A DNA stretch of 30,130 bases from Azolla caroliniana (GCA_043228905.1 JBHGNT010000379.1:1-30130); one strand, 5' to 3'. Positions 1 through 28,847 are shown, counted from the stretch's first letter. Numbers and translations are program-made. The notes: a model not told the origin generated them from the sequence alone.

Positions 1-1366
1 AAACCGTCTCCGGCAAAGGTAGAAGCCATCTCCGCGATGAAGCCCGACTGCAGCTCGGTCACGGAAGTACGGAGATTCCTGGGGGCATGCGCGTTCTACC
101 ACATGTGGATCCCGCATTACGCACACGTCGCGGAGCCACTGTACGGGTTGCTGAAAAAGGGGCGAAGGTTCGAATGGCTAGACAAGCACGCGGAATCGGT
201 CCGGAAGCTGAAAGAGGCCCTTGCAGCGGCACCGGCAATCCGGAAGGCGGTTTACGGGAAGGGTACCCCGGTATTCATAACGGTGGATACCAGTCCGACC
301 GGGATCGGATGGGTCGTGAACCAGGAAGACGAGGACGGCAATCGGTTTCCGATCCGATTCGGCGCGAAAGTCCTCAGTGAACGGCAGCGAGGATACGCCC
401 AGGTTAAACGCGAACTCTGGGGTATTGTTTCGGCGGTTAAGGCCGACAAAGACTACCTGATAGGGACGGAAGTGATCATCGAGACGGATTGCCTGCCGAT
501 TCTCGGTATGGTTTCCGGATGCGCGACTCCGGACCTGGCGATGCTCAGGTGGATAGCGTACATCAAGTCCCTGGACCCGGAAATACGACACATTTCCGGG
601 AAAGACAACGCCATGGCCGACATGCTTTCGAGGGCGAGGTTCGACGACGAGGGCGGCATGGTTTCGGAAGACGAAGAAGTCGGCGTGGATTTCTTCGAGG
701 CGGCATACATAACGACCGACGGGATGAGCACTCCGGCGCTTAACGAGTTCGACGCGAGCAAGTACGACGGGGAGTGGCTGCAGATCGGCGGGTTTTTGAA
801 GACAATGACGCCCGATGCGTCATGGACGAAGGACGAGGCCAACCGGATCCGGAAGAAAGCGTATCGATTCTTTCTCCGAGATGGGCATCTATGGAAGCAC
901 CCGAAGAAGAGGGACGGCGTCCCGCTCCGAGTGGTGGCGATGAAGGAAGTACAGGAGGAGCTACTGGCGGCCTACCACGACAGCCCTTGGGCTGGACACC
1001 GTGGAACGTGGGCGACGTTTGAGAAGCTGAAGGGAAAGTACTGGTGGCCGGGATTGTACCGGGACGTGCATCGGTTCGTGTCAACTTGCGAGAGTTGTCA
1101 GATGCACTCGATAGTCCGACACCGGGACGGGCTTCACCCTACGTACCCTCCGACTATCCACTTCAAATGGATGGTAGATCTGGTGACGATGCCGATGGGG
1201 GTAGGACAGATGCGGTATCTGGTCCTAGCGCGGGAAGACCTGACGAACCAGGTGGAAGGCCGGGCCCTTCAGAACAAGACGACCGCGGCCGTGTGTCGGT
1301 TCCTAGTCGAGGACGTGATATGCCGGTACGGGTGCGTCGGGAAGATCGTGGCTGACCGAGGGGAGT
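1..1366 (+). CDS. pol: Ty3/Gypsy pol fragment, copy A (RT C-terminus, RNase H, integrase Zn finger and start of core), truncated at both ends
   Basis: Frame open from base 1 (KPSPAKVEAISAM..). Motifs VRRFLGACAFY, TVDTS..ELWG..ETDC..NAMADMLSR (RNase H), H-X6-H..C-X2-C, WMVDL..IVADRGE. Homology to copy C stops at ADRGE; the ORF tail to 1428 is read-through into inverted sequence. Confidence 0.93.
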
Positions 1367-2396
1367 CTCTGCTCTCCACGGCCAGCTGGAACTGGTCGTA
1401 CCCTGAGTATAGATCCCCGACCGAATAAATTGACCTTCCGGCGAAGGCCTCCGCGAACTCGTCTATGGTCGGTCCGATTCCTGCGTTCCGAATGGTCACT
1501 CGATTGACCGGCTGCAGGTCCTGGATGAAGCGCAGCGAACCGTTTTTCTTCGGTACGGTAAACCATCGATTCGAATATGGGGCGCTCGACGGCTCGAGAA
1601 TTCCCATATCAACTTTCTGCCTCAGCAGCTCCATCAACTTCGGGATGTGAGCTCTCGGAACCGGGATTGGCTTGAGATTCCATGGTACATGCGGTACCGT
1701 GAATATCACCATCGGCTCCACGATCGTCGGGTCAACGCACCCGATTTCCTCCGGCGAGAATGCGAAGGCTTTCCCGTGCCTTCCGAGCATTCTCCGAAAC
1801 CGGTCTTCCTCCGCCGGCAGTAGGAACCCGCCCCCACCGATTTTGAGCTCTCGGAGCGTCTCGTCAGTGAAGGTGTGCCCTATGCAGGCCGGATCTCGTA
1901 GACTAGGGTCTGATGCAACCCCTTTGATTCTCGACGCGCTGTCCTCCGGTAAGGGTGCCGCTACTGGCCTTACCTTCCGGTCCACAGTCTTGTACTTGGT
2001 GTTCACGTGGGCCGTCCGAACTGACTCGAGCCCTCGACCGAAGTCCGCGATGACTTCGTACATCTCCTCGGAACACACCGGTATCGTCCGGTCTTCGTTA
2101 AGGCCTTCTTCGACTACCTTCCCCAGCATTCCCAAGGTGTCGTCGAGTGAGACCGCCTCCACGGCCCCGTTGATTTCCTCGTCCGGGCCGAGAACTCCGC
2201 ACGCTCGAAGTCTCCCCTCCGCCTTTGTCTTCTCTCGGCCGCCGATGCCGACTATCGTACACGCTCCGCTGTCGGAGAACAGAAATTCCCTACCTGTGGT
2301 ACAAGGTTTCTTCGGTTTTATCGTACAGGTGTGGGGTTTTCCCGGGGTGTCCGGACTGTCGCGGCCCCACGCCTTGGCAGCCCTCTCTAAAAATCC
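1365..2396 (-). CDS. pol: pol N-terminal part (linker plus first half of RT), in the -1 frame relative to gag-PR
   Basis: Frame open from GFLERAAKAWG through PHVPWNLKPIPVP, GILEPSSAPYSNRWFTVPKKNGSLRFIQDLQPVN and DLYSGYDQF. Confidence 0.9.
2331..2396 (-). promoter_or_regulatory. Putative -1 ribosomal frameshift signal (G GAU UUU heptamer, 6-nt spacer, stem/pseudoknot)
   Basis: Heptamer at 2396-2390 directly before the gag-PR UAG. Stem arms GGGCUGCC/GACAGUCC; loop GUGGGG is complementary to downstream CCCCAC. Same site seen in 4 copies. Confidence 0.75.
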
Positions 2397-4513
2397 TCTC
2401 GGTTATCGGAACCGAGGGAGTCGCGGTTACGCTCGTGGTTCGGCCTAACCGTCAAAAACTGGACCGAATGGCGCCCGTCCTGGCTCTTGACCCGCGCATA
2501 GGCCGAACCATTGTCCAGCACCTTGGTCTCCATTCGCGCCGCCGTGATATACGGCTCTCCCAGTATGACCGGATGCGAAGACGTCTCCTGCACGAAGAAG
2601 TGCTGGTCAATCTCGACGTCGCCGATCTTGACTCGCACATTCGGACAGGCCCCGTGCAGTTCCTCGGTGGCGCGCGTTGCTGCCCTTATTTTCCACCCGT
2701 GCTTGGTGTTGATCGGCCATTTGCCCTTCTTATAGAAGTCCATGGACATCAGATTGATCTCCGATCCGTGGTCCACCAAAGCTATCACCGGTTCCTGGAC
2801 ATCGCCGATCTTCACCGGGGTTTCCGTGGTCGCTCGGGCCCAGTGCGGTCTCGAATAGTGGCTTTCCGCCCACTCGTCTCCCAGCGCCATGTCGTCTAGG
2901 TGCGTCGTCCGCACTTCCACCGGTCTTTCCGGTTCTGTCTCCGTTGACAGCCTCTTCCGTTTCACCAAGTCCACGATGGAGTCGTGGAACTCCTTCTTGG
3001 CGATTCCAAGCACCTCCCGTAGCGACAGCTCCACCTTGCTGTCGAGGATCCGTTCCTCCAGGACCTTTCGTAAGTCCGTGGTTCTTTCTATCTCCGTCCC
3101 CAGACGGTACCCGCCCTTCTGGGGTTTATCTTGCGTACCGGCCTTGCCGGCTTCGTCCCGTCGTGGCCCGGACCGGGTCTCGTATCGTTGTGAGGGCCCG
3201 GTCGTCCCGGGTTTTCCCACCCGCTTCTCTTCTACCAGAGCCTCGTAGTTCCGGCAAGCGGCTTCCACGAAGCCCGTCCTTTCCTCGACCGGGTCGCTCC
3301 ACCCGGTCATCTCCCGTACCCGTTTCTCCGCACGGTCCGATTCCTCCCTTTTAAGCCCTGCACCGGCAAGGCCTTCCAGCATCGTCGGCCAGAATCCGGC
3401 TTTGCTTTCCTTTCGGGCCTCGCCGCCCCCGACTCGAATGCCGGCCGACGCCGAGTAGTGGACGGTTTCCGCGTGTCGGGCCGCCGCCTCTTCCATCAAC
3501 CTTTTCATACCACCTTTTCCGTCGTTTCGGCTCAGGGCCCTTCGGGTGTCGCTGGCATGCACCCGTCCTTCCCACAGGTACACCACCCGGTCCCTCAGCG
3601 CCTCCGCGAAGTCGCCGCAGTCCTTCCGAACGTGGCCGACTTCATCGCACCACATGCACCTGTTTCCTGCCGCCGGCCGTCGGTCACGAGCCGGTTCGCC
3701 TCCTTCCCTTCGGGCCTGCGCGATTTGGAGGTCCTTTATCGCCTTCGTCAATTCCTCCAGCGCCGCTCCTCCGGTTGAGCCTCTGACTACGCCGGTCGAA
3801 GCCGAACCGGTTTCCAACCACTCCCGGGTCTCTTCCTTGCGCACCTGTGGCGCTGGTTCGAGCTTCCTTGCTGCGACCGAGCCCGACCCGGTCGCCCCGT
3901 TATCCGCCCATTCTCGCCGTTTGTCGAAACGGCCACAGACCTTCTTGACAGCCGCCCAGTCGGTAGTGAGCCCGTCTTCGGTTTCCAGCAAGAGGCCCAC
4001 TTGCTCCCGATCCCGCTCGTCGACCGACTTGACAAACAGCAAGACCCGGCTCGTGTCCAGGATGGTTCGGTCGAGCGCCGAAAGGCGCGCAAAGTTTTCC
4101 TCGAACTCCCGGAGGAGTGCCGACGCGTTTCTTCCCTTCCCCGGGGACTCCACCCATTCCATGAACCTTCGCTTCGAAAGCCGGAGCGCGTCGTCCAGCC
4201 CGTATTTCTCTAGGAGCCGACCTTCGAACTCCTCCCAGGTACGGCTCTCCGCCCGCACCTCGAGCACCTCCGCATGGATGCTCGGCATTGCCACTCGGGG
4301 AAAACCGGCAAGACGCCTTTCTTCCGGAATGTCCCGCATCAACATTTCTGCACCGTAGGACGCCAGATACTTCGTGGCATCCCTCCCATCGAACCGGCCG
4401 ATCGTGCCGACGACCGCCTCAATAGCTCTGTCGAGGGCACCGGTACCCTCGCGCGCGTTTACGATCCGATCCACGGCCGAAGCCATGGCCTCTGCGAGAT
4501 CCGACCCCCTCAT
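2387..4513 (-). CDS. gag: Gag-protease polyprotein (CCHC zinc knuckle plus retropepsin-like domain)
   Basis: Uninterrupted ORF. ATG at 4513 (MRGSDLAEA) is conserved in copies E, G and I. CMWCDEVGHVRKDC knuckle; ALVDHGSEINLM..VILGEPY protease motifs. Confidence 0.92.
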   Translation of the reverse strand: MRGSDLAEAMASAVDRIVNAREGTGALDRAIEAVVGTIGRFDGRDATKYLASYGAEMLMRDIPEERRLAGFPRVAMPSIHAEVLEVRAESRTWEEFEGRLLEKYGLDDALRLSKRRFMEWVESPGKGRNASALLREFEENFARLSALDRTILDTSRVLLFVKSVDERDREQVGLLLETEDGLTTDWAAVKKVCGRFDKRREWADNGATGSGSVAARKLEPAPQVRKEETREWLETGSASTGVVRGSTGGAALEELTKAIKDLQIAQARREGGEPARDRRPAAGNRCMWCDEVGHVRKDCGDFAEALRDRVVYLWEGRVHASDTRRALSRNDGKGGMKRLMEEAAARHAETVHYSASAGIRVGGGEARKESKAGFWPTMLEGLAGAGLKREESDRAEKRVREMTGWSDPVEERTGFVEAACRNYEALVEEKRVGKPGTTGPSQRYETRSGPRRDEAGKAGTQDKPQKGGYRLGTEIERTTDLRKVLEERILDSKVELSLREVLGIAKKEFHDSIVDLVKRKRLSTETEPERPVEVRTTHLDDMALGDEWAESHYSRPHWARATTETPVKIGDVQEPVIALVDHGSEINLMSMDFYKKGKWPINTKHGWKIRAATRATEELHGACPNVRVKIGDVEIDQHFFVQETSSHPVILGEPYITAARMETKVLDNGSAYARVKSQDGRHSVQFLTVRPNHERNRDSLGSDNREDF

Positions 4514-4535
4514 CTTCTGCTCTTCTGCCGCCTCT

Positions 4536-4553
4536 TTCACGTCGGGTTCACCA
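4536..4553 (-). promoter_or_regulatory. Primer-binding site, tRNA-Trp
   Basis: TGGTGAACCCGACGTGAA, 3 nt after the LTR end. Complement of the plant cytosolic tRNA-Trp 3' end (..UUCACGUCGGGUUCACCA, recalled sequence). Confidence 0.85.
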
Positions 4554-4556
4554 AGA

Positions 4557-5271
4557 TGTCGGGGTTGCTACGCCCTTGCGTGTAGAAAGGAGGAGGGACC
4601 ACGGGGGTCTTGAACCGAAGAACAAGAGAGAGAGAGATAAGAGAGAGAGACCCCGATTACACAGAACCGAAGTTCCGATTGCGCAGAACCGACGATTACA
4701 CAGGGACACGGCCCAACAAACAGAGAACACAAATAAACGCCGACGCAGATGGACGCAACAACGAAAGATATGTACTTATGAATGCAAGAAAATAACAGAC
4801 TAAAGTACTACAACCCTCAGTGGGGCACGAAATAGATACTAACGAAAACGAACAGGGCGGCGAACAGATGCCGACCCCTGTATGTCGCGACGCACAGAAA
4901 GGGGAAACAGGTCGGAGGTGCTGCAGGACGCACTCGGGCGTTCCACGGAACAGCGCAAGCCTCCTCGAAACCTGCACAGGTACGCGATGGAGCAGAAGAC
5001 AGAGAGAGCGGGAGAGAGAGAGAAGCTCCGAAATCGGTTCGGCAGCACTTCGTCCTCTCCGCGGGAGATGCCCACATCTATTCTTCCTCTTCCTTTTATA
5101 GCCCGTCAAGAGGCCGTTTGGCATTAACTGCATACCAACCGAATCTACCCACCTAGGATCCTCGTATGTACCTACTTCGTCCTTAGGTACTTCTTGGCGC
5201 GCGTGTGTGTGTAGAGTCGTTTCCCACGCCTTGTCCTCCGATTCCTCTTGTGGGCGGTTTTCTTCACGACA
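4557..5271 (-). repeat. 5' LTR of copy B (715 bp)
   Basis: Minus strand TGTCGTGAAGAAAACC...CCCCGACA, followed by the PBS; carries the family U5 motif. Confidence 0.9.
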
Positions 5272-6788
5272 CCGGGAAAGACAACGACATGGCCGACATG
5301 CTTTCGAGGGCGAGGTTCGATGACGAGGGCGGCATGGTTTCGGAGGACGAAGAGGTCGGCGTGGACTTCTTCGAGGCAGCATACGTAACAACCGACAGGA
5401 CGAGCACTCCGGCGCTTAACGACTTCGACGCGAGCAAGTACGACGGGGAGTGGCTGCAGATCGGCGGGTTCTTGAGGACAATGGCGCCGGATGCGTCATG
5501 GACGAAAGACGAGGCCAACCGGATCCGGAAGAAAGCGTACCGGTTCTTCCTCCGGGATGGCTATCTATGGAAGCACCCGAAGAAGAGGGACGGCGCTCCG
5601 CTCCGGGTGGTGGCGATGAAGGAAGAACAGGAGGAGCTGCTGACGGCCTACCATGACAGCCCTTGGGCCGGACACCGTGGAACTTGGGCCACGTTCGAGA
5701 AGATAAAGGAGATGTACTGGTGGCCGGGACTGTACCGGGACGTGCATCGATTCGTGACAACTTGCGAGAGCTGTCAGATGCACTCCGTGGTCCGACACCG
5801 GGACGAGCTTCACCCAACGTACCCTCCGACCATCCACTTCAAATGGATGGTAGATCTGGTGACGATGCCAATGGGGGTAGGACATATGCGGTACCTGGTC
5901 CTAGCGCGGGAGGATCTGACGAACCAGGTGGAAGGCCGGGCCCTTCCGAACAAAACGACCGCGGCCGTATGTCGGTTCCTAATCGAGGACGTGATATGCC
6001 GGTACGGGTGCGTCGGGAAGATCGTGGCTGACCGAGGGGAGTTGGACGCCGAAGAAGGCGCGGAGCTGTTCGACCGGCTTGGAGTCAAGCTCTCGCTCAC
6101 CACTGCGTACAATCCGGAGGCGAATGGAAAGGTGGAGCGCGGACACGGGCCGATCGTCAAGGCGTTGGTTCGGGCATGCGGAGGTCGAGTCGGTAACTGG
6201 CCGCGGCTGCTACCTTATGCTTTGTGGGCAGACCGGACCACGCACAGTTCGGTAACCGGGTACATGCCGACGGAGCTCATGTTCGGCCAGAAGCCGATCA
6301 TGCCGATGGAACAGACGATCTCCACGTGGGCAACGGTCGACTGGAGGGACGAGATGACCCGGGAGGAGTTGTTGGGCGCGCGTATACGACAGCTCGAGCG
6401 GAGACCGGAGGACGTGGAACTGGCTGCGGAGAAGCTCCGGGTGGCGAGGACAAAGAACAAAGCCAGGTTCGACCGAACGCACCGGCTCCGACCGAAGAAA
6501 ATCGAAGAAGGTGACTGGGTGCTCGTCTACGACAGCAGCCTCGACAACCAGCACCGAGCTACACGGAAGTTCGCACGAAGGTGGTTCGGGCCTTACGTGG
6601 TACGGAGCGCCAATGACAACGGGACATATCACCTGACGGAACTCGACGGCACGAGAATGGCGATACCGGTTGCAGGGAAGCGGATCAAAGCGTTCAAGAA
6701 GCGACACGACGACGAGCCGGACCCGGCTCTCCTAGTCAGCAGTGACGAACGATCCGAAAACGAGGAAGAACCGACGGGCGAGGAATGA
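5272..6788 (+). CDS. pol: pol 3' part of copy C (end of RNase H, complete integrase, no chromodomain)
   Basis: Near-identical to copy A over about 5272-6041. HHCC; DDE core (WMVD, VADRG, NGKVERGH); RRWFGPY module; acidic tail. The ORF start at 5205 is LTR read-in. Confidence 0.93.
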
Positions 6789-6846
6789 AGACGGGCCGGT
6801 TTTCTCCGTCCCAACTCTCTTGGCGCATACCGGAGGATGCGCGGTT

Positions 6847-6859
6847 AGGTGGGGGCGGA
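6847..6859 (+). promoter_or_regulatory. Polypurine tract of copy C
   Basis: AGGTGGGGGCGGA immediately before TGTCGTGA. Confidence 0.7.
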
Positions 6860-7652
6860 TGTCGTGAAGAAAACCGTCCATAAGCGGAATCGGCGCACCA
6901 AGGCGTGGGAACCGGTTCTTCACGCACGCACGCTCCAAGTTGTACATAGAAGCGAATTAGGAGGATAATCGGCAGGAACGGGCCCTAACACAAGTGGAGA
7001 CAAAGACCGCGCGAACAGTCTTTTCGGTCGCGCGCGCGAGCTAAGGAACTGTACGAGTCGGCGGCGTAACTACACGGATGCGTGAAGAACGGAGCGGATC
7101 CCTGTTCAAAAGGGACAGGGAATAAAGCTGACAGGACGGCCTGCTCGTCGGCCTATATAAGGAGCAGGAAAGAGCTGTTGCAGGGATCTCGCGCGGAGAG
7201 GACGAAGTGCTGTCGGACCGTTTCTGGACGCTTCTCTCTCTGTTTCCTTCCTTCTTGAGCTCCATAGCTTTTCTGTGCAGGGTTCCGAGGAGCCTCGCGC
7301 TGTTTCGAGGAACGCCCGAGTGCTTCCGGCAGCATCTCCGACCTGCTACCCCTTTGTGCGTCAAAGCGAACAAGCGCCGGCTTCTGTTCGCCGGCCTGTT
7401 CGGCTGTAACCAACCTGTGCCCCATCGAGGGTTGTAGTCGTGTTAGCCATTTTTGTTAATATACATAGTTAGTCATTCGCATCTGTCTGTGTCGGTGTCT
7501 GTTCGCGTTCTCCGTGCTGAAGGGCCGTGTCCCTGTGTATTCCCGGTCCTGCGTAGCCGGTTCTCTCTCCTTCTCCTCCCTCGCTTGCTCTTTGGTTCGA
7601 GACCCCCGCGGTCCCGCCTCGTTTCCACACGCACTTGCAAAACATCTCGACA
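6860..7652 (+). repeat. 3' LTR of copy C (793 bp)
   Basis: TGTCGTGAAGAAAACC...TCTCGACA; TATA-like CCTATATAAG near 7152; U5 motif near 7595-7615. Confidence 0.9.
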
Positions 7653-7878
7653 GCGTGTGTGTGTGTCTTAGTGTTTCTTTCTTGCTTATGTACATATGTG
7701 TGTGAGAGTCAATATTGCGTGCCCGCTCTCTCTCTCTCTCTCCCTTCGGTTGCTTCCGGTGTGCTTCTGGGATGCCCCGGAAATGGTGAAGCACGACTTC
7801 CTACGTTCCGTCACTCCCTAGTCCAAGACCCCCGTGGTCCCGCCTTTCTCCAACACGTACTCGCAAAACTTCGCGACA
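7653..7878 (+). repeat. 3' remnant of another family LTR (D), the target of copy C
   Basis: Ends GTCCAAGACCCCCGTGGTCCC...TTCGCGACA. No PBS follows, so it is a 3' or solo LTR; it abuts pol of copy E. Confidence 0.82.
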
Positions 7879-10788
7879 CCGTGACTGACCCACAATCATC
7901 CTTCATCGCGGAGATGGCTTCTACCTTTGTCGGGGACGGCTTCCGGCCGTAAGGCCTGCACAAGTGTTCGACTACCAAGATCTCCGGTTGTCCGAAGGCT
8001 GATTTTTCTCATGAGAAGGTGAGTCGCGCGCTCTCGAGTCTTTGTAGCACCTTCTCGCAGTCGCGGATGTGATCCATCACGAACCTCCGGCAACCGTCGA
8101 GCCCGACCGACTCGTCCTTGTCCTCCATTGGACATCCTTTGATCGGGATGTCGTCCAGAAATGGCATGGTGATGTCCGGGATGCAGTCCCTCAACACCTT
8201 GTTCATCGCATTCACCATGTGCGCCATTGAGTTCGTTCCTCCTTGCGGCAGGGTACAAATCCGAACTAGGCCGAGAGGAGTCCGCATCGTCGTGACATCC
8301 CTGCTCTCTACGGCTAGTTGGAACTAATCGTACCCTGAGTACAGATCCCCGAACGAGTAGATCGACCTCCCTGCAAAGGCCTCCACGAACTCATCGATGG
8401 TCGGTCCGATACTTGTGTTTCGAATGGTCACCTTGTTGGCCGACTGCAGGTCCTGTATGAAGCGCAATGTGCCATTCTTCTTCGGCATGGTAAACCACCG
8501 ATTCGAATATGGGGCACTCGACGGTTCGAGGATGCCCATCTCCACCTTCTATTTCAACAACTCCAGCAGCTTCGGGATGTGAGCTCTGGGTATCGAAATC
8601 GGTTTGAGATTCCACGGCACATGTGGTACCATCAAGATCACCATTGGTTCCACAACCTTCGGGTCTACGCACTCCATCTCCTCCAGCGAGAATGTGAAAG
8701 CCTTTCCGTGCCTCCCGAGCATTCTCCGAAACCGGTCCTCTTCCGCCGACAGTAGAAAACCACCCCCACCGATCTTGAGCTCCCGTAGCGTTATGTCGGT
8801 GAACGTGTGTCCTATGCTGGCCGGATCTCGTAAACTTGGGTCCAACGCGGCCCCCTTTATCTGTAACTCGCTGCCCTCCGGCATGGGTGCCGCGACTGGC
8901 CTCACCTTCCGGTCCACAATCTTGTACTTCGTATCCAGTTGGGCCATCCAATCTGACTCGAGTCCACTACCGAAGTCGGCGATGACTTCGTACATCTCTT
9001 CCGAACATACCAGAATCGTCTGGTCCTCATTAATGCCTTCTCCAAACACCTCCCGTAACTTCCCCAAGGTGTCGTCGAAAGAGACCGCCTCCACGGCTCC
9101 GTTGATTTCCTCTTTAGGGCCAAGAACTCCGCATGCCCAAAGTCGCGTCTTCGTCCGCTTCTTTTCCTGGCCAACTATGTCGGCTATTGTACAACCACCG
9201 CTATCGAAGAACCACAATTTTCTACTTATGGTACAAGTGTTTTTGCCTATAGTACATCTGTGGGGTTTTTCCGGGGTGTCCGGACTATCGCCGCCCCACG
9301 CCTTGATCACCCTGTCTACAAATCCCCTCGGTTTTCGGCACCGAGGGTCTCGCAGTTACGCTCATGGTTCAGTCACACCGTCAGGAACTGGACCGAGTGA
9401 CGCCCATCTTGGCTCTTGACTCGTGCATATGCCGAACCGTTGTCCAACACCTTTGTCTCCATGCACGCCGCCATGATGTACAGTTCTCCGAATATCACCG
9501 GATGCGAGGACGTCTCCTGCACGAAGAAGTGTTGATCGATCTCGACATCACCGATTTTCACTCGTACATTCGGGTAGGCTTCGTGTAGCTCCTCCGTGGC
9601 ACGCGTTGGTGCCCGTATCTTCCACCCGAGCTTGGTGTTGATCGACCACTTTCCCTTCTTGTAGAAGTCCATGGACATCAAGTTGATCTCCGAACCGTGG
9701 TCTACCAACGCCACCACCGGCTCCTGGACGTCCTCGATCCGAACAGGGGTTTCCGTATTGGCCCTGGCCCAATGTAGCCTCGAGTAATGTCTTTCCGCCA
9801 ATTCGTCCTCCAGGGCCATGTCTTCTAGGTGCGTCATTCGCATCTCCACCGGCTTCTCTGGCTCCGGCTCCATCGAAAGCCTTTTCCGCTTCACCAAGGC
9901 CATGATGGAGTCGTGGAATTCCTTCTTCGCGATTCCAAGCACTTCCCTTAGTGACAACTCCACTTTGATGTCAAGTATCCGTTCCTCCAAGACCTTTCGT
10001 AGGTCCGTGGCTCTTTCGATCTCTGTGCTCAACCGATAACCGGCCTTCTTAGCCTTGTCCGGTGCGCCGGATGCACCGGCATCATTCTGCTTCGGCCTGA
10101 ACCGGGTCTCATACCGTTGTGAGGGTCCAACCCCCCCGGTCTTTCCAGTGCGCTTGTCTTTTACAAGAACCTCGTAGTTTTGGCATGTGGCTTCCACGAA
10201 GCCCATCTTCTCTTTGATCGGGTCACTCCACCTGGTTACCTCCCGGACTCGTCTTTCCACGCAGTCCGCTTCCTCTTTCCTCAGCCTTACGCCGGCGAGG
10301 CCTTCCAGCATCACCGGCCAGAATCTAGTTTCCAGAACGGTCCGGTCAAGCACTGAGAGGTGCGCGAAGCGTTCCTCAAACTCCCGGAGGAGCACCGACG
10401 CGTTCCTTCCTTTGTCGGGGGTCTCCACCCACTCCATGAAGTCTCACTTCGAAAGTCGAAGCGCATCTTCAAGCCCATATTTTTCGAGGAGCCGACCTTC
10501 GAATTCCTCCCAGGTTCGGCTCTCGGCCCGTACCTCGAGCACCTCCGTATGGATGCCCGGCATTGCCACTCGAGGGAATCCGGCTAGACGCCTCTCTTCC
10601 GGAATGTCCCTCATTACCATCTCAGCCCGGTAGGACGCCAAGTAGCTCGTGGCATCCTTCCCACTAAACTGGCCGATCGTACTGACAACCGCCTCGATAG
10701 CCCTATCAAGGGCGTCGGTGCCTTCGAGCGCACTCACTATACGGTCCATAGCCGAAGCCATGGCTTCTGCGAGGTCCGACCCCCTCAT
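7879..10788 (-). pseudogene. gag-PR / RT pseudogene of copy E
   Basis: ORF pieces 10444-10788, 9373-10437, 8549-9310, 8324-8545 and 8009-8287 are separated by single stops. Zinc-knuckle region deleted near 10325 (TVLETR|FWPVM). Confidence 0.9.
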
Positions 10789-10809
10789 CTTCTACTCCTC
10801 TGCCGCCTG

Positions 10810-10827
10810 TTCACGTCGGGTTCACCA
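10810..10827 (-). promoter_or_regulatory. PBS tRNA-Trp, copy E
   Basis: Same 18-mer as in copy B, 6 nt after the LTR end. Confidence 0.85.
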
Positions 10828-10833
10828 AATTGG

Positions 10834-11477
10834 TGTCGCGTTATTACGCGCGTGCGTGGAGAACAAGGCGGGAGCACTAGGGTCTTGGACCGAGGAATAG
10901 GTGAGAAAAAGGGGAGGAAAGAGAGAGACGCTCACACACGTATAGACAAAGAAGCACACGGGAACGCGGCCCAACAACACAGGAGACACGAGTTGAGAAC
11001 ACTAGCGTATGTAAATAAAATATGTATGTATGCAGATGACTCGAACGGTTATAGCCGATCAGGTCGGCGAGATGGATGCCGACGCCTGATCACTCACGCA
11101 CACAAGGGAGCAAGATGGAGATTCTGCCGGAAGCACACGAGCGTTCCACGGAGCAGAATCAGCCTCCTGAGAACCTGCGCAAAAGAAAACTATGGAGAAC
11201 GACAGAGAAGAAGAGCTCGGTCCCAGTCCGACAACACTTCGTCCCCTCTAGCGTGCGATACCTTCTCTCCCCATCTCCCTCTCTTTTATAGCTCAAGGAG
11301 GGAGGCCGTTTCACCCGTTTACATCACATTAATTCTCTCTATAGAATATTGCTACCTAGGATTCGACTTTTGTGCCTACCTATCTACTATACAACAAGGG
11401 GCGTCGTGTCCACGTGTAAGGGCCGGTTCACACACGCTATACATGGTTTGCGCCTGGGGACGGTTTTCTTCACGACA
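10834..11477 (-). repeat. 5' LTR of copy E (644 bp)
   Basis: Minus strand TGTCGTGAAGAAAACC...ACGCGACA. Confidence 0.9.
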
Positions 11478-11521
11478 ACGTTATACCCGGTTTCCGCCTA
11501 GGGACAGTTTTCTCCACGACA
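11478..11521 (-). repeat. 44-bp 5' tip of another family LTR (F), interrupted by copy E
   Basis: Minus strand TGTCGTGGAGAAAACTGTCCCTAGGCGGAAACC resembles the starts of LTRs C and G. Confidence 0.75.
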
Positions 11522-12010
11522 ACATTACCCCCAATGTTAGTAGAGGCACTTTTCCAACTTGTAGTCTTTCTTCATAGGATACATAGCCAACCACATGATA
11601 GAATATCTCATCAAGCCTTTAAGGCCTCTCGATCATTGTATGAGTCTGGCTATACTAGCTCATGGTATGGCATGATGGTGAGTTTGCTTCTTGTGAATGT
11701 TCTAGACATTAATAACCTACCTCCCCTTAGGTACAACCACACGATTGATAACACTTTAATCTCTCATGAGGACCACAATAAAGTACTACGCCAAGACATA
11801 TGACAAATTTACAATCGGCATAAATGGATCACCCTACGAGAGCCACTCCCATCTAAAATATTGTACTATGAGGAACACTTTATGCACTTCACCGAGTTAG
11901 ATTTTATCACGTGGCCAAAATATCTAGTTGTATTCTTACCACATGCACTGAGGGTTGCCATTGGACAACTTCGAATATCATCTTACCAACTTGAGATTGA
12001 GAATGGACGT
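11522..12010 (+). mobile_element. Degenerate non-LTR retrotransposon (LINE) ORF2 C-terminal fragment
   Basis: AT-rich. Translates near 11945-12010 to ALRVAIGQLRISSYQLEIENGR, matching the LRxSSHxLxIExGR motif that precedes the C-terminal Cys domain of some LINE ORF2s. Confidence 0.65.
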
Positions 12011-12615
12011 TGTCGTGAAGAAAACCGGCCATAGGCGGAATCAGAGAGAAAGCGCGTAAACCGGCCCCTACACGGATGGACGCGTGACTGGATACTTTGT
12101 ACACGAACCGGTGGATGTGACTACTAAGCCGCGCACATTTATTAAGGTCAGAGGGTACAGGGAATAAAGGGAAGAGGATAAGGGAAAACGAATATCGCGT
12201 GTTGGGAAGAGAAGAGCGTTGATGCAGAACGGAGGGCCGAGCTCTCTCTCCTCGGGTCGTCGCTCTCTGTAGGTGTCGGGAGGTCGCTGCCTCTGCTTCA
12301 CGGACAGCCCGTCTGCTTCCAGCAGGGTCGTGTCCTTCCCCCCCTTTGTTTCTTGGAGTCGTGTCACTGTCGCCGGTGTGCGTGAGTAGGGTCCCCGTGT
12401 CGGGTCCGTCGCCGCCTTGTCGGTTGTAACTGTCGGATTTGTAATCTCTTGTTTGTAATGTCTTGTCAATATAATTAAATGTTACGTCCTATATCTCCTC
12501 TTCTCGCTTCTACGTGTCTGGGAATCTCTCTCTCTGTCTCTCTCTCTCTCGCTCCTCGGTCCAAGACCCCCGTGGTCCCGCCCCTTTCTACATGTACGCG
12601 CGTAACAACGCGACA
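12011..12615 (+). repeat. 5' LTR of copy G (605 bp)
   Basis: TGTCGTGAAGAAAACC...ACGCGACA, followed by the PBS. Confidence 0.9.
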
Positions 12616-12619
12616 TATT

Positions 12620-12637
12620 TGGTGAAGCCGACGTGAA
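12620..12637 (+). promoter_or_regulatory. PBS tRNA-Trp, copy G (1 mismatch)
   Basis: TGGTGAAGCCGACGTGAA. Confidence 0.8.
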
Positions 12638-12659
12638 CGGGCGGAAAAGGAGTTGAAAG

Positions 12660-15600
12660 ATGAGGGGATCAGAGCTAGCAGAGGCAATGGCGGTGGCCGT
12701 CGACCGGCTAGTGAGCGCTCGTGAGGGAACGGGTACCCTCGACAGAGCCGTTGAATCGATCATCGACTCTGTAGGCCGTTTCAGAGGGAAAGACGCCACA
12801 AGTTATTTGGAGGCTTACCGGGCCGAAATGATCATGAGGGATATCCCGGTGGACAGGCGGCTGTCCGGATTCCCTCGGGTGGTGACGCCGGGCATCCATG
12901 CGGAGGTGCTACAGGTGCTGGCCGGATGCCAGACGTGGGAGGAGTTCGAGTTGCAGCTCCTCGAGAAGTACGGGTTTGACGACTCGCTCCGGCTGTCGAG
13001 GCGGGACTTCATGGCGTGGGTGGAAAGCCCCGGAAAAGGGAGGAACACGTCAGTGCTCCTCCAGGAATTCGAAAAACGGTTCGCGCGGCTGTCAACGCTG
13101 GACCGGACGGTGCTCGAAACAAGTCGAGTGCTGCTGTTTGTCAAGTCGGTTGATGCGCTCGACAGGGAAAAGGTGGGTCCCCTACTGGAAACGGACGAAG
13201 GGCTCACGACGTATTGGGCCGTGGTAAAACGGGTCTGCAGCCGTTTCAACAAACGGCGCGATTGGAGCGACGGAAGCACGTCGGGGTCAGGGCCGGTCCT
13301 GGGGAGGAGGCTCGAGGAGCCGGTTTCGGTGCCGGCTGAGAGGAAGGAAGAGACCCGAATCCGGCCAGAGTCGGGGTCGGCATCGAGCGACGTGGTCAGA
13401 GGCCCATTCGGAGGAGCGGCTCTGGAGGAGCTAACACAAATGGTGCGCGACCTGCAGATCGCACAGGCCCAGAGAGACAGCGGTGAACAACCTCGCGACT
13501 GAAGGCCGTCGGTTGGGCAGCGGTGCATGTGGTGTGACACGATCGGTCACATTCGGAAGGATTGCGCGAATTTCGCCGACGCGCTCAGGACCAACGTGGT
13601 GTACCTCTGCAACGGGCGGGTACACGCGAGCGAGACCCGGAGAGCCCTAGAACTGAATACGGGGCGCGACGGAATGAAGAGGTTGATGGAAGAGGTCGTG
13701 GCACAGCACGTCGAAGCCGTCAACTACTCGGTGTCGGCGGGAATTCGGGTCGGGGGTGATGAGACCCGGAAGGCGAAGGACTCCGGATTCTGGCCGCTAG
13801 TGCTAGAAGGCCTCTCCGGAGTTCGGCTGAGGAAGGAAGAGGCGGACCGCGCGGAACAACGGGTCTAGGAGGTCACCGGTTGGGACGATCTAGTCGAAGA
13901 GAAAACGGGCTTCAAGCCGCTTGCCAGAACTATGAGGTTCTGGTGGAGGACAAACGGGCAGGAAAGGCCGGAGGGGTTGGCCTCCCGAGGTATGAGACCC
14001 GGTTCAGACCGAAACCGACCGGTGCCGGCAACCTAGGCGTGCAGGATGGGAAGAAGCAGGCGGGGTTTCGGTTGAGCACCGAAATCGAGAGAGCAACGGA
14101 CCTACGGAAGGTCCTTGAAGAGCGAATCCTTGACAGTAAAGTGGAGTTGTCGTTGCGGGAGGTGTTGGGAATCGCCAAGAGGGAGTTCCACGACTCTATC
14201 GTAGACTTGGTGAAGCGGAAGAGGCTCTCGACGGAGCCCGAACTGGAGAAGCCGGTGGAAGTGCGGACCACGCACTTGGAAGACGGAGCCCTGGAAGATG
14301 AGCTAGCAGGAAGCCACTACACGAAGCCGCATTGGGCTAGGGCGACTATGGAAACCCCTGTACGGATCGGCAACGTTCTGAAACCGGTGGTGGCATTGGT
14401 AGACCATGTATCCGAAACCAACCTGATGTCCATGGATTTCTACAAGAAGGGTAAATGGTCGATCAACACCAAGCATGATTGGAAGATACGGGCAGCGACG
14501 CGCGCCACAGAAGAACTACATGGGGCCTGTCCGAACGTACGGGTGAAAATCGACGATGTCGAGATCGACCAGCACTTCTTCGTGCAGGAGACGTCCTTGC
14601 ATCCGGTTATACTAGGAGAGCCATATATCACGACGGCACGGATGGAGACCAAGGTGCTGGACAACGGTTCAGCCTATGCAAGAATCAAGAGCCAGGATGG
14701 GCATCACTCGGTCCAGTTCCTAATGGTGCGACCAAACCACGAGCGTAACCGCGAGGCCCTCGGCAACGAAACCTGAGGGGATTTTTAGAGAGGGCTGTCA
14801 AGGCGTGGGGCCGCGATAGTCCGGACACCTGGGAAGAAACCCAGAGAAAGACCTGTACCATAGGAAGGAAATTTTGGTTCTCCGACAGCGGAGATTGTAC
14901 TATAACCAGCGTCAACGGCAGGGAGAGGAAGCGAACGGAGGATCGGCTCAGGGGATGCGGAGTCCTCTTCCCCGACGAGGACATCAGCAGCGCCGTGGAG
15001 GCGGTCTCTTTTGACGACACCTTGGGCGAACTACGAAAGGTGATCGGTGAAGACCTTAGGGAAGACTGGACCGTTCCGGTAGGGTCAATGGGAATGTACG
15101 AAGTCATCGCTGACTTCGGGGAAAGGATCGGGTCAGATCGGACGGCCCGGGTGGATACGAAATACAAGACTGTGGACCGTAAGGTGAGGCCAGTTGCGGC
15201 ACCCTTGCTGGAGGGTAGCGAGGAGCGGATAAAAGGGGTCGCGTCGGACCCAAGTTTACGAAATCCGGCTGGCATAGAGCACCGGTTCACCGACATAACG
15301 CTACGGGACATCAAGGTCGGTGGGGGCAGCTTCCTACTGCCGGCGGAGGAGGACCGGTTTCGGAGAATGCTCGGGAGGCACAGGAAGGCTTTTGCATTCT
15401 CACCGGAGAAGATCGGGTGTGTAGATCCGACAGTTGTCGAACCGATGGTGATCTTCACGGTACTGCATGTACCGTGGAATCTCAAGCCGATTCCGGTGCT
15501 GAGAGCTCACATCCCGAAGTTGATGGAGCTCCTAAAGCAAAAGGTGGAGATGGGTATCCTCGAACCGTCGAGTGCCCCGTATTCGAATAGGTGGTTTACG

Positions 15601-15698
15601 GCGCCGAAGAAGAACGGCACGCTGCGCTTCATCCAGGACCTACAACCGGTCAACAAGGTGACCATCCATAATGCAGGGATCGGATCAACCATAGACGA
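12660..15698 (+). pseudogene. gag-PR / RT pseudogene of copy G
   Basis: ORF pieces 12660-13502, 13527-13868, 13880-14776 and 14995 onward are homologous to copy B; stops arise from CGA/CGG codons. Confidence 0.9.
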
Positions 15699-16094
15699 GG
15701 GGAAAGAATACAACCCCGGCTTCGAACCGGACCAAGCTAGGGTAGGTTACAACAGCAGTCTGCAGCCAAGCCGCCGTTCGGGGAGCTCTCGGGCTCGTCA
15801 CACAGAGCGGGGTCTTGCACAGGAGACCGAGCAGAAATAGCCCTCAATAGTCAACCGACACCACGAAGAAGAGGAAGAAGAAGAAGAAGAACTAACCCTA
15901 AATCTAACGGTAGGCAACCCTTCTACAAGGAGAGGGATGCGTTACAATGTGGTATAAATCCCGATTTACATGGGATTCTTCGTCTCGACTTAACTCTTAT
16001 TATTCACACAATTACACGAGGGTGGGTGCAATATTTCCCGCCGATGTAGCCAATATTTCCCGGTTTCTGCCTCTGGCCGAAATTCTTCACGACA
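15699..16094 (-). repeat. 5' part of a divergent family LTR (H), 3'-truncated
   Basis: Minus strand starts TGTCGTGAAGAATTTCGG. Inserted 20 bp before the end of the 5' LTR of copy I. Left boundary approximate. Confidence 0.7.
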
Positions 16095-16118
16095 ACGCAT
16101 GTAACAACGCGACATATT

Positions 16119-16136
16119 TGGTGAACCCGACGTGAA
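16119..16136 (+). promoter_or_regulatory. PBS tRNA-Trp, copy I
   Basis: TGGTGAACCCGACGTGAA. Confidence 0.85.
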
Positions 16137-19100
16137 CAGGCGGCAGAGGAATAGAAAGATGAGGGGGTCGGATCTCGCGGAAGCCAATAGCAGCAAGGAA
16201 ACTTGAGCCAAACCCGCCAGTGCGAAGGGAAGAGACCCGAGACTGGCTCGACACCAGATCGACTTCAACCGGCATGATCAAAGGCTCGTCCGAAGGAGCA
16301 GCTCTAGAGGAGCTTACTAGGATGGTAAAGGACCTCCAGATTGCACAGGCACGGAGGGACGGCGGCGAACAGGCCCGTGACCGAAGGCCTCTGGTTGGAA
16401 ACCGGTGTTTGTGGTGCGACGCGGTCGGCCACGTCCAGAAGGACTGCGGGGACTTCGCCAAGGCAATGAGAGCCAACGTAGTGTACCTATGGAACGGTCG
16501 GGTGCACGCTAGCGAGACCCGAAGGGCCCTGAACCTGAATGTTGGACGAGGGGGTATGAAACGGCTAATGGAAGAAGCAGCGGCTCGCCACGCAAAGACC
16601 GTCCACTACTCGGCGTCGGCTGGGATCCGAGCCAGAGGTGGTGAGGCTCGAAAGGCAAACGAAGCCGGATTCTGGCTGTTGATGCTGGAAGGCCTCGCCG
16701 GCGCACGGCTAAGGAAAGATGAGGCGGACCGCGCGAATAGGCGGGTCCGGGAGGTAACCGGGTGGAGTGACTCGGTTGAAGAGAAGACGGGCTTCGTCAA
16801 AGCCGCATGCCAGAACTACGAGGTTCTAGTGGAAGACAAGCGAGTAGGTAAAACCGGAGGGGCTGGGCTCTCGCAACGGTACGAGAACCGATTCGGTCAA
16901 AGGTAGAATGAGGCCGGTGCAACCGGCGCACCGGATAAAGCAAAGAAGGCCGGGTACCAGTTGAGCATGGAAATCGAAAGAACCACGGACCAACGAAAGG
17001 TCCTGGAGGAACGTATCCTCGACAGCAAAGGGAAGTGCTCGGGATCGCCAAGAAGGAGTTCCCCGACTCCATCGTAGACTTGGTGAAGAGGAAGAGGCTG
17101 TTGACAGAGCCAGAGCCGGAGAAGCCGGTGGAAGTGCGAACGACGCACATAGAGGACATGGCACTAGAAGACGAGTTGGCAGAGAGCCACTATTCGAGGC
17201 CGCACTGGGCCAGACCGACCACGGAGACCCCTAATAAGGTTGGGGATGTCCAGGAGCCGGTGGTAGCGTTGGTGGACCACGGTTCAAAAATCAACTTGAT
17301 GTCCATGGACTTCTACAAAAAGGGGAAATGGCCGATCAACACCAAACACGGCTGAAAAATACGGGCAGTGACGCGCGCTACCAAAGAACTACATGGGGCA
17401 TGCCCGTACGTATGGGTGAAATTCAGCGATGTCGAGATCGACCAACACTTCTTCGTGCAGGAGACGTCCTCATATCCGGTTATACTAGGAGAACCATACA
17501 TCATGGCGGCACGAATGGAGACCAAGGTGCTGGACAACGGTTCGGCCTACGCAAGAGTCAAGAGCCAGGACGGGTGTCACTCGGTCCAGTTCCTGACGGT
17601 GCGACCAAACCATAAGCGTAACCGTGAGACCCTCGGTGGCGAAACCCGAGGGGATTTTTAGAGAGGGCTATCAAGGCGTGGGCCGCGATAGTCCGGACAC
17701 CCTGGAAAAACCCCACAAATGTACAGTACGGAAGAAGACTTGTACCATAGGTAGGAAATTTTGGTTCTTCGACAACAGAGGTTGTGCTATGGCCGGCGTC
17801 AGCGGCCGGGAAAGGAAGCAAGAGGAGGAGCGGCTCAAGGGATGCGGAGTCCTGTCCCCCGATGAAGAGATCAGCGGCGCCGTGGAGGCGGTCTCTTTTG
17901 ACGACACCTTGGGCGAGTTGCGAAAGGTGATCGGTGAAGACATTTGAGAAGACCGGACCGTTCCGGTAGGTTCGATGGGAATGTATGAAGTCATCGCAGA
18001 CTTCGGGGGGAGGATCGGGTCGGATCGGACGGCCCACGTGAGTACGAAGTACAAGACTGTGGACCGGAAGGTAAGGCCGGTCGTGGCACCCTTGCCGGAG
18101 GGCAGCGAGGAGCGGATAAAAGGGGTTGCGTCGGACCCAAGTTTACGGAATCCGGCTGGCATAGGGCACCAATTCACCGACATAACGCTACGGGAGCTCA
18201 AGGTCGGTGGGGGTGGCTTCTTACTACCGACGGAGGAGAACAGGTTTCGGAGAATGCTCGGAAGGCATGGGAAGGCCTTCGCGTTCTCGCCGGAAGAGAT
18301 TGGGTGCGTGGACCCGACGATCGTCGAACCGATGGTGATCTTCACGGTGCCGCATGTACTGTGGAATCTCAAATCGATTCCGGTGCCAAGAGCTCACATC
18401 CCGAAGTTGATGGAGCTTTGAAGCAAAAGGTGGAGATGGGCATCCTCGAACCGTCGAGTGCTCCGTATTCGAATCAGTGGTTTACAGTGCCGAAGAAGAA
18501 TGGCACGCTGCGCTTCATTCAAGACCTGCAACCGATCAACAAGGTGACCATCTGTAATGCAGGGATCGGACCGACCATAGACGCGTTTGTAGAGGCCTTC
18601 ACCGGAAGGTCGATTTACTCTGTCGGTGATCTGTACTCGGGGTACGATCAGTTCCAACTAGCCGTGGAGAGCATCTAGACATTACGACGATGCGGACTCC
18701 TCTCAGCCTAGTTCGAATGTGTACCCTACTACAAGGAGGGACGAACTCGGTTGCCCACATGGTGAACGCGATGAACAAAGTGCTCAGGGATTGTATCCCG
18801 GACATCACCATGCCATTCTTAGACGAGATCCCGATCAGGGGATGCCCGGTGGAGGAAAGGGACGAGATAATAGGACCAGACGGATGTCGGAATTTCGTGG
18901 CGTCTCACATCGATGACTGCGAGAAGGTGTTGTAGAGACTAGAAGGCACGAGGCTCACCTTCTCCGGGGAAAAATCAGCCTTCGGGCAATTAGAGACCAT
19001 GGTCTTTGGGCACCTATGTGGACCATATGGTCGGAAACCGTCTCCGGCCAACGTGGATGCCATCTCCGCGATGAAGCATGACTGCAATTCGGTTACTGAG

Positions 19101-19408
19101 GTTCAGAGATTCTTGGGAGCATGCGCATTCTACCATATCTAGATCCCGCATTACGCCCACGTCGCGAAGCCGCTGTATGGGTTGCTGAAGAAAGGGCGTA
19201 AATTTGAGTGGGGAGACGAGCATACAGAGTCAGTCCAAAAGATGAAGGAAGCATTTGCCACGGCACCGGCGCTCCGAAAGGCGGTCTACGGCAAAGGCAC
19301 TTCGATTTACGTTGTCGTGACGATTTTTGGCTACGGTGTGAAACCGAGTGAGATGAATAAACCAAGGATGTGCAACATTGCACATACACTTAGCAAATAA
19401 GCCTCCTA

Positions 19409-19503
19409 AGGCCTAGTGGCACTTAAGTTCATACAGAGGGGTGCAAGCAAGGTTTGAACCTTGCACCTCTAAGATACAAGATAATTGCCTTACCACTAGG
19501 ACA
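19409..19503. promoter_or_regulatory. tRNA-like A-box/B-box module, mirror-symmetric
   Basis: CCTAGTGG (19412-19419) and its reverse complement (19493-19500) flank the central GGTTTGAACC (19451-19460). Confidence 0.55.
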
Positions 19504-19570
19504 ACTATCATATAGTGTAGATTTTATGTATTTCCTTTTCATATACAAATTATAGACGAAACAACCATAG

Positions 19571-19682
19571 AAAACCATGTGCACAAAACCATGGTTTTAA
19601 ACCCATGGTTTGTGCATGACATAAGCAAAACCATGTGCACAAAACCATGGTTTTAGCCCATGGTTTTGTGCATGTCACGAGC
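19571..19682. repeat. Two tandem 56-bp units, each internally palindromic
   Basis: AAAACCATGTGCACAAAACCATGGTTTTA..CCCATGGTTT(T)GTGCATG occurs twice. Confidence 0.85.
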
Positions 19683-21126
19683 ATGGAAAGACCTATAAAA
19701 GCCTCTAGTTGGGCTTGTGTAAGGGGGGCTCAATATGTGATATCACCAACACCATTATCATCAATATAATTATATTTGTCTTTATCATCTTCATATTTTT
19801 CTACTTCTCAAGTGCACAATTTTTCTTCTTCTCAAGTAAACCAATTTCATCTAATCTTACATTGATCATCATCTCTTTGATAATTCCGCGAACATCCTCC
19901 CCAGTCCAAGACCCCGGTGGTCACTCGAGTAGCACACGCACGCGTGAATCTTCGCGACAACGTAACCGTAGACACGAGTCTGAGCGGGATCGGATGGGTG
20001 ATCAACCAAGAGGATGACGTTGGCACGAGGTTCCGCATCCGGTTCGGCGCGAAGGTCCTCAGTGAGCGACAGTGAGGATACGCCCAGGTTAAACGCGAAC
20101 TCTGGGGTATCATTTCGGCGGTGAAGGCCGATAAAGACTACCTGATCGGGACAGAGGTCGTTGGACGAGACCAAGTCAAAATACGGATGCTGAAGAAGGC
20201 TCTCAACCGGACCTTCTCAATGAAAGACTTGGGTCCAGCAAGACAGATGTTGGGGATGCACATCATTCGGGACCAGTCAGTAAAGCAATTATGGTTGTCA
20301 TAGGAGAAGTATGTGACAAAGGTGCTTCACCGGTTCAACATGTTAGAGGCGAAACCGGTCGGATCGACACTTCCGGCAAACTGCAGGCTATCCGGTAAGC
20401 AAAGCTCGAAGATGAAAGCAGAGAAGGCGGATATGATGAAGATTCCATATGCCTCTGCTGTTGGGAGCTTGATGTACGCAATGGTGTGTACCCGACTGGA
20501 TATAGGATACGCAGTCGGAGTGGTGAGCCAGCTCATGAGCAATCCCGGCAAGGAGCACTGGAACGCGGTCAAATGGATACTCCGGTATTTGAAGGGCACT
20601 TCAAATATGTGTCTCCGATTAGGCTCCGGAAAGCCTCAACTGGACGGTTTAACCGATTCGGACATGTCGGCTGATGTGGATACCAGCCGGTCTACATCCG
20701 GGTATGTAATGACATATGCAGGGGGAGCTGTTTCGTGGCAGTCGAGGCTGCAGAAGACGGTTTCATTGTCAACCACAGAGGCGGAGTACATGGCAGCTGT
20801 GGAAGCCGGCAAGGAAATCTTGTGGATGAAGGACTTCATCGGAGAGCTCGGTATCCGGCAAGATGAATACCGACTCTATTGCGACAGTCAAAGTGCCATC
20901 CACCTTGCTAAGAATGCGGCCTACCATTCCCGGACGAAGCATATCTAGCGGAGATATCACTGGATCCAGGAAAAAGTAGATGACCAGGAGTTTGCGCTGA
21001 CGAAGATCCACACGACTGAGAATGGGTGAGATATTCTGACCAAGGTTCTGATACCCGACAAGCTGGATGCATGCCGGAAGCGAATCAGACTGATCAGACA
21101 CCCCATGCCGGAGTGAAGGGGGAGTT

Positions 21127-24837: not shown

Positions 24838-24840
24838 AAC

Positions 24841-24852
24841 TGGTATCAGAGC
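24841..24852 (+). promoter_or_regulatory. PBS tRNA-iMet
   Basis: TGGTATCAGAGC, 3 nt after the LTR. Confidence 0.95.
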
Positions 24853-24868
24853 GAAACGACACAGAAAA

Positions 24869-28845: not shown

Positions 28846-28847
28846 TT

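What the first reader, a model, noticed from the sequence alone, without database searches (positions are those of the whole stretch)
5272..19963. Gypsy family appears to integrate at CpG-centred 4-bp target sites
Seen: the 4 bases outside every visible outer LTR end are CCGG (5272), GCGT (7653), CCGT (7879), ACGT (11478), ACAT (11522), ACGT (12007), ACGC (16095) and ACGT/ACGT (19309/19960). Seven of 8 insertions are NCGN, and the eighth is the CpA expected from deamination of ACGT. Solo LTR J shows the duplication is 4 bp because the host frame is restored. Two of the targets lie in the AT-rich LINE remnant, so host GC content alone is a weak explanation. Known: most plant LTR elements make 5-bp TSDs with weak consensus (the Copia here made CTAAA). 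Inference: this chromodomain-less integrase reads CpG, possibly methyl-CpG, a sequence-level route into TE-dense DNA that would explain the self-nesting.
Basis: partly seen in the sequence, partly recalled or inferred. Interest (0 to 1): 0.82.

Follow-up and report, generated by a model that had tools for sequence, protein, structure and literature searches.

The report
Phygy-like plant retrotransposon inserting at CG
These nested jumping-gene copies nearly always sit in 4-base target sites with CG in the middle; the pattern is real but was already published for the moss Phygy lineage, to which this family likely belongs, and the idea that it reads methylated CG is untested.

Summary
All 8 flanks are as stated (7 NCGN, 1 NCAN; P about 1.5e-8). 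Only element J shows both copies of the duplication (ACGT/ACGT), and one copy restores the host RNase H frame. It replicates outside the window: 77 of 90 unique 3' LTR flanks from metagenome contigs have central CG against 3.8% background, as do 13 of 15 5' flanks. CG lies at positions 2-3 from both ends, which fixes a 4-bp duplication. It is not new: Neumann et al. 2019 (PMC6317226) report 4-bp NCGN sites in all 186 Phygy elements of Physcomitrella. This family fits Phygy: no chromodomain, no extra RNase H, compact interior, Physcomitrium protease-region homologues 53-71% identical. REXdb reference sequences could not be compared directly. The methyl-CpG idea is untested and gets no support here: NCGN share is equal in CG-poor and CG-rich flanks, and TG/CA centres are not enriched. 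Only 10 of 90 outside flanks are family DNA, so the motif does not explain this window's self-nesting. One small new lead: a clade-conserved Glu/Asp at the integrase position of foamy-virus Ala188.

The parts
1..1365 (+). Element A: RT end, RNase H, integrase fragment of the family; broken off at a junction with B
1366..5271 (-). Element B: 5' LTR 4557-5271, primer site, gag-protease ORF (DUF4100 hit), RT N-part; inserted in C
5272..5275 (+). Target flank CCGG (B in RNase H of C); empty site seen in copy A 585-612
5272..7652 (+). Element C: integrase ORF 5274-6788 (D194, D253, E288; Glu256 at codon 6039-6041; no chromodomain), polypurine tract, 3' LTR 6860-7652
7653..7656 (+). Target flank GCGT (C in LTR of D)
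7653..7878 (+). Element D: 3' part of an LTR
7879..7882 (+). Target flank CCGT (D in RT of E)
7879..11477 (-). Element E: 5' LTR 10834-11477, primer site, broken gag-pol
11478..11481 (+). Target flank ACGT (E in LTR tip of F)
11478..11521 (-). Element F: 5' tip of an LTR
11522..11525 (+). Target flank ACAT (F in CG-poor repeat); the one non-CG site
11522..12010 (.). CG-poor (1.8%) high-copy repeat hit by F and G; LINE label unconfirmed
12007..12010 (+). Target flank ACGT (G)
12011..15699 (+). Element G: 5' LTR 12011-12615, primer site, broken gag-pol, truncated in RT
15700..16094 (-). Element H: 5' part of an LTR
16095..16098 (+). Target flank ACGC (H in LTR end of I); empty site seen in G LTR
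16095..20158 (+). Element I: LTR end, primer site, broken gag-pol, interrupted by J and cut by a Copia fragment
19309..19963 (+). Element J (19313-19959) with family LTR termini and AT-rich interior, flanked by ACGT/ACGT; one copy restores the host RNase H frame

Best explanation
These are nested copies of a chromodomain-less Ty3/gypsy retrotransposon, likely of the Phygy lineage, that sit in 4-bp target duplications centred on CG, and the integrase itself likely picks that sequence regardless of methylation. Shown: 4-bp duplication; symmetric consensus V-C-G-B (A>C,G, almost never T first; T>G,C, almost never A last), extending weakly to C/A before and G/T after. From the literature on retroviral intasomes: a 4-bp stagger needs a sharp bend at a flexible central pyrimidine-purine step, and T is avoided at the joining base. 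Inferred: bending alone would accept CA, TG and TA, so the near-exclusive CG needs extra base readout by the integrase. The clade-conserved acidic residue at the Ala188-equivalent position and the conserved C-terminal-domain loop (about residues 420-437) are candidates, untested. The few CA/TG/TA sites would be later deamination or tolerated bendable steps.
For: Window 7 of 8. Outside: 77 of 90 unique 3' flanks NCGN vs 3.8% background, log10 p about -95; CG at no neighbouring offset (0 of 90 at offsets 1 and 3). 5' flanks 13 of 15 CG at -3..-2, 0 of 15 at -2..-1 or -4..-3. CG is 77 of 87 pyrimidine-purine centres vs 16% expected. First base T in 2 of 77 vs about 34% of background NCGN. G at +5 in 42 of 90, p=5e-8. 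In public DNA runs of three coded organisms, contigs leave the G junction mainly at 12007/12008, i.e. they share ACGT/CGT and then diverge (40/19, 54/28, 10/6 contigs in X4, X6, X13). Phygy: 186 elements, 4 bp 100% NCGN, no extra domain (PMC6317226 supplement 5). 17 Physcomitrium gag-protease homologues; the 16 that passed the length cut are 53-71% identical over the protease region and lie in the same tree, together with one more, P0392 among them. Nearest solved structures are foamy-virus (4-bp) and Ty3 intasomes. PMC4422553 passages on flexible centre and T avoidance. ZAM integrase binds a CGCGCG site in vitro (PMC2527525).
Against: Phygy membership is indirect: the REXdb sequences were not readable, the Physcomitrium proteins carry no lineage label, the tree was the quick one on 188 protease-region columns with no outgroup, and the window family is not sister to them with starred support. 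No Physcomitrium name was among the 120 listed hits of either integrase/RNase H search. Estimated element length 6.9-7.3 kb is below Phygy's 7,656-9,968 bp. Of 10 apparent solo LTRs in the contigs only 1 (L030) has matching flanks; I attribute the rest to collapsed assembly because 5 contigs show one LTR with both polypurine tract and primer site, but did not prove it. No biochemistry: direct readout is inferred. The Ala188 position acts outside the duplication in retroviruses, so it may not explain the central CG.
Confidence: 0.78

Rival explanations
1. The integrase (or a host cofactor) prefers methylated CpG, steering the element into methylated repeat DNA without a chromodomain.
For: 6 of 8 window targets are in the family's own DNA. 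Outer, older copies have lower CpG o/e (1.03-1.08) than inner ones (1.17-1.24), so these repeats do seem to undergo methyl-C decay. Phygy is reported enriched in liverwort centromeres (PMC12885004 passage).
Against: No methylation data. TG/CA, which carry a 5-methyl like methyl-C (own knowledge), are 8 of 90 centres vs 13.8% background. NCGN share is the same in CG-poor and CG-rich flanks. Only 10 of 90 outside flanks are family DNA. A CG-type target exists for Drosophila ZAM and is bound by bacterially made integrase in vitro; that the fly largely lacks CpG methylation is recalled.
Confidence: 0.1
2. Only DNA bendability is read: any pyrimidine-purine step works and CG is simply the most deformable one, with no base-specific contact.
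For: 87 of 90 centres are pyrimidine-purine; flexible centres are general for 4-bp integrases (PMC4422553).
Against: CG takes 77 of 87 such centres against 16% expected; TA only 2 of 90 though 6.3% of background; the retroviral preferences are described as weak.
Confidence: 0.1
3. The pattern is an artefact of LTR end definition, CG-rich hosts or search pattern.
For: Host elements are CG-rich (6-11%); the LTR ends themselves are CG-rich; 9 of 10 apparent solo LTRs in contigs have unmatched flanks.
Against: The search pattern ended at the LTR terminus and did not include the flank; 28 primer-side ends are not NCGN; flank background is 3.8% CG; J restores the frame.
Confidence: 0.02

Closest known systems
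Phygy lineage (non-chromovirus Ty3/gypsy, REXdb; Neumann et al. 2019, PMC6317226)
   Same: 4-bp NCGN duplication, no chromodomain, no extra RNase H or extra ORF, coding region fills the interior, primer site that I recall as tRNA-Trp type, Physcomitrium homologues
   Different: Host is not Physcomitrium at the sequence level (53-71% protease-region identity); estimated 6.9-7.3 kb vs 7.7-10 kb; Phygy was defined as species-specific, while homologues here also include Riccia, Adiantum and Ceratopteris proteins
TatI subclade (same paper)
   Same: 4-bp duplication, tRNA-Trp primer, about 9 kb
   Different: TatI always carries an archaeal-type RNase H; none found here; no NCGN preference is listed for it
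Selgy (same paper)
   Same: Non-chromovirus, compact, 4-bp duplication
   Different: tRNA-Ala primer, about 5 kb, no NCGN preference listed
Drosophila ZAM/Tirant errantiviruses (PMC2527525, PMC5408687)
   Same: Ty3/gypsy integrase with a CG-type palindromic target (CGCG), attributed to the integrase itself
   Different: Animal env-bearing lineage, CGCG(Cg) rather than VCGB; relatedness not tested here
Prototype foamy virus intasome (PDB 4e7k, 3os0-2; PMC4422553)
   Same: Nearest solved integrase by sequence and fold; 4-bp stagger, flexible central step, T avoided at the joining base
   Different: Weak YR preference rather than near-strict CG; small neutral Ala188 where this clade has Glu/Asp

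Membership tests
Phygy | Groups with Phygy in RT/RH/INT phylogeny (REXdb) | tested here: inconclusive
   REXdb files too large to read. Proxy: unlabelled Physcomitrium gag-protease proteins are close homologues and lie in two clades of the same quick, unrooted protease-region tree; none among listed RH/INT hits
Phygy | 4-bp TSD with NCGN | tested here: met
Phygy | No chromodomain | tested here: met
   Pfam on C integrase to its stop and on 3 full pol homologues; model C-terminus beyond the SH3-like domain is low-confidence tail
Phygy | No extra domain (aRH) or extra ORF; polyprotein fills interior | tested here: met
   gag starts within about 50 nt of the primer site and pol ends about 70 nt before the 3' LTR
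Phygy | tRNA-Trp primer binding site (81%) | tested here: inconclusive
   One conserved 18-nt primer site in 4 window copies and 28 loci; its assignment to tRNA-Trp is recalled; no tRNA in window, motif in no paper
Phygy | Length 7,656-9,968 bp (descriptive, P. patens only) | tested here: not met
   Interior about 5.7 kb from coordinates plus LTRs of 605-793 nt gives 6.9-7.3 kb; the paper calls size of little value for classification
TatI | Archaeal-type RNase H domain | tested here: not met
   No second RNase H family hit in pol
Chromovirus (Tcn1 etc.) | Chromodomain, 5-bp TSD, self-priming | tested here: not met
   only 24% identity to the other Ty3 integrase in the window
Methyl-CpG-reading integrase | Prefers methylated over unmethylated CG | not testable with these tools
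   No methylome or assay; indirect signs do not favour it

The most novel reading that the evidence does not exclude
The Phygy-type integrase, with its unusual acidic residue at the target-contact position, selects methylated CpG and so reaches heterochromatin by reading DNA methylation directly instead of histone marks, across mosses, liverworts and ferns.
Probability: 0.1. Interest if true: 0.75.

Novelty: new member of a known kind. Interest (0 to 1): 0.2.

Why it matters
The motif is in print as one sentence and one table cell (only PMC6317226 came up as relevant in the NCGN search), with no mechanism found in my searches. This work adds a refined symmetric consensus, a second host and a candidate residue. 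An LTR integrase with about 85-90% CG specificity is a handy model for how intasomes gain sequence specificity, and its CG duplications could serve as a methyl-C decay clock. If it read methylation it would be a new targeting route, but nothing here shows that.

Tried and rejected
No whole genome is held, so no genome-wide logo or age strata. Paired flanks in metagenome contigs: 1 of 10 match, rejected as a TSD test because of collapsed LTRs. L030 empty-site check failed: only the right flank aligned to the window repeat. My first frame check around J was out of frame and was redone. Age test for deamination weak: p=0.08; 40 of 45 vs 37 of 45. Cluster members gave no organism names. Atlas search gave only generic Gypsy integrases. 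LINE label: no Pfam or Atlas support. Earlier scan findings: none. PMC12810828 and PMC7466625 passages did not bear on target motif or Phygy naming; PMC9002660 only lists the name. The careful tree did not finish; the quick tree was used. Supplements 1 (per-element table) and 3 (sequences) of PMC6317226 could not be read and bear directly on membership.

Full report
Observation. The window holds a nest of Ty3/gypsy copies of one family (A to J) plus Copia and another Ty3 element to the right. Listing every LTR-type end confirms the eight outer flanks at the stated coordinates: CCGG, GCGT, CCGT, ACGT, ACAT, ACGT, ACGC and ACGT/ACGT. Inner ends face the primer site or the polypurine tract and are not NCGN, so the LTR runs TGTCG to CGACA and the flank is host DNA. 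Seven insertions show one flank only. J shows both: the host reads GKGTSIY on the left and TVDTSLSGIGW on the right, against GKGTPVFITVDTSPTGIGW in copy A, leaving room for exactly one codon when ACGT is counted once. With each host's CG frequency the chance of at least 7 of 8 is 1.5e-8. The Copia duplication CTAAA is confirmed.

Replication. No genome is held. 65 of 122 align to the window over 100 nt or more, median 77%, maximum 91%, so they are the same or sister subfamilies, from few samples. Of 122: 28 face the primer site, 1 has no flank, 93 are outer ends, 3 duplicates were dropped, 90 remain. Central dinucleotide: CG 77, CA 4, TG 4, TA 2, other 3; flank background CG 3.8%. CG is 0 of 90 at offsets 1 and 3. 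Of 34 LTR starts in the same loci, 18 face the polypurine tract, 16 are outer, 15 unique; 13 have CG at -3..-2 (L105 is counted at both ends, so 13 of 14 without it). CG at positions 2-3 from both LTR ends is only possible with a 4-bp duplication. The consensus is symmetric: first base A55 C19 G13 T3, fourth base T43 G25 C16 A6, then G in 42 of 90 at +5, mirrored by C in 8 of 15 at -5. Contigs from public DNA runs (4 of 20 listed runs per call) agree: at the G junction the best-supported loose ends begin at 12007 and 12008 in runs of three coded organisms, with unrelated sequence beyond (83 rows not shown); the majority line past an LTR end reads ACGT in all four runs. Against: of 10 apparent solo LTRs in the contigs only L030 has matching flanks; five contigs carry one LTR with both polypurine tract and primer site, which points to collapsed assembly.

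Identity. Domain order is gag, protease, RT, RNase H, integrase with no chromodomain and no second RNase H. Named integrase homologues come from Riccia, Adiantum, Ceratopteris and, distantly, the fungus Smittium (120 of 172 and 120 of 268 listed). The gag-protease search listed 17 Physcomitrium patens proteins among 120 of 226. In a quick protease-region tree (127 of 131 rows) they form two clades and the window copies lie within the same radiation, without starred sister support. The host is therefore likely a non-seed plant; I did not identify it.

What is known. Neumann et al. 2019 (PMC6317226; passages, section 9 and supplement 5 read) write that Phygy elements have an insertion preference for NCGN, and tabulate 186 elements, 4 bp 100% NCGN, tRNA-Trp primer 81%, 7,656-9,968 bp, no extra domain. 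Jedlicka et al. 2019 (PMC6911290; passages) found GC-rich centres in 4-bp duplications and mostly 4-bp ones for Phygy. Phygy is also reported in a liverwort (PMC12885004; passages). This family meets the duplication, chromodomain and structure criteria, is somewhat shorter (6.9-7.3 kb), and its primer site is tRNA-Trp by recall only. The defining phylogenetic test against REXdb could not be run. I put Phygy or immediate sister at about 85%.

Mechanism. The integrase has D194, D253, E288 and is closest to foamy-virus and Ty3 integrases by sequence and predicted fold (model pLDDT 72, pTM 0.49). For retroviruses a 4-bp stagger favours a flexible central step, T is avoided at the joining base, and local preference is largely independent of chromatin (PMC4422553; abstract and passages). 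That explains the pyrimidine-purine centre and the missing first T. It does not explain CG taking 77 of 87 such centres against 16% expected, so extra base readout is inferred. The residue aligned to foamy-virus Ala188 is Glu256; 175 of the 184 stored homologues with a recognisable motif have RGE or RGD there and 8 more have xGE (234 examined, 50 without the motif), whereas retroviruses have small neutral residues. This is a lead only, as that position acts outside the duplication in retroviruses. ZAM shows that a gypsy integrase can bind a CG-type site on its own (PMC2527525, PMC5408687; passages).

Methylation and nesting. Nothing here measures methylation. NCGN share does not change with flank CG density (39 of 45 vs 37 of 43; 88 of 90 flanks long enough), TG/CA centres are below background, and 10 of 90 outside flanks are family DNA, although such assemblies lose repeats. 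The family's own DNA is 2-3 times richer in CG than average flanks, which gives a modest push to self-nesting but does not need methyl reading. Searches for a methyl-CpG-targeting retrotransposon integrase or a Phygy mechanism found nothing relevant; the library lacks most subscription papers.

Verdict. Real, replicated, 4-bp CG-centred targeting; already described for Phygy; new host, refined consensus and one candidate residue. Interest 0.2.

Noticed in passing
window 6039-6041 (C integrase Glu256): The clade has D-R-G-E/D after the second catalytic Asp, placing an acidic residue where foamy virus has Ala188 and retroviruses small neutral residues.
   Followed up: partly
window 19313-19959: J has family LTR termini but an AT-rich interior with a palindromic 56-nt repeat pair (19571-19682); its right half matches L020 at 77% over 307 nt, so it may be a short non-autonomous derivative or a distinct subfamily LTR.
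   Followed up: partly
window 1-20158: Family DNA has CpG o/e above 1; inner copies A-C 1.17-1.24, outer copies E, G, I 1.03-1.08, matching nesting order.
   Followed up: partly
window 1365/1366 and 15699/15700: Two deletion junctions (A|B and G|H) both cut the host element at nearly the same place in RT (B just past FQLAVES, G just before it); no LTR end at either junction.
   Followed up: no
window 2390-4537 (-): Pfam DUF4100 hits the gag-protease region; this DUF appears to be part of the Phygy-type gag-protease ORF.
   Followed up: partly
window 1269-2402 (-), 14749-15699 (+): Pol starts in a different frame overlapping the gag-protease end and has about 250 residues before RT with no Pfam match.
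   Followed up: no
window 21145-21468: Five 54-nt tandem units inside a Copia LTR.
   Followed up: no
window 24266-29419: Near-complete Copia with CTAAA duplication inserted in the RT/RNase H of another Ty3 element (22277-24265, 29420-30130, minus) whose integrase has a Tf2-like SH3 domain.
   Followed up: partly
L016, L068, L101: The same TCCA flank occurs three times after an LTR end, twice with a polypurine tract upstream; may be one multi-copy junction rather than a target site.
   Followed up: no
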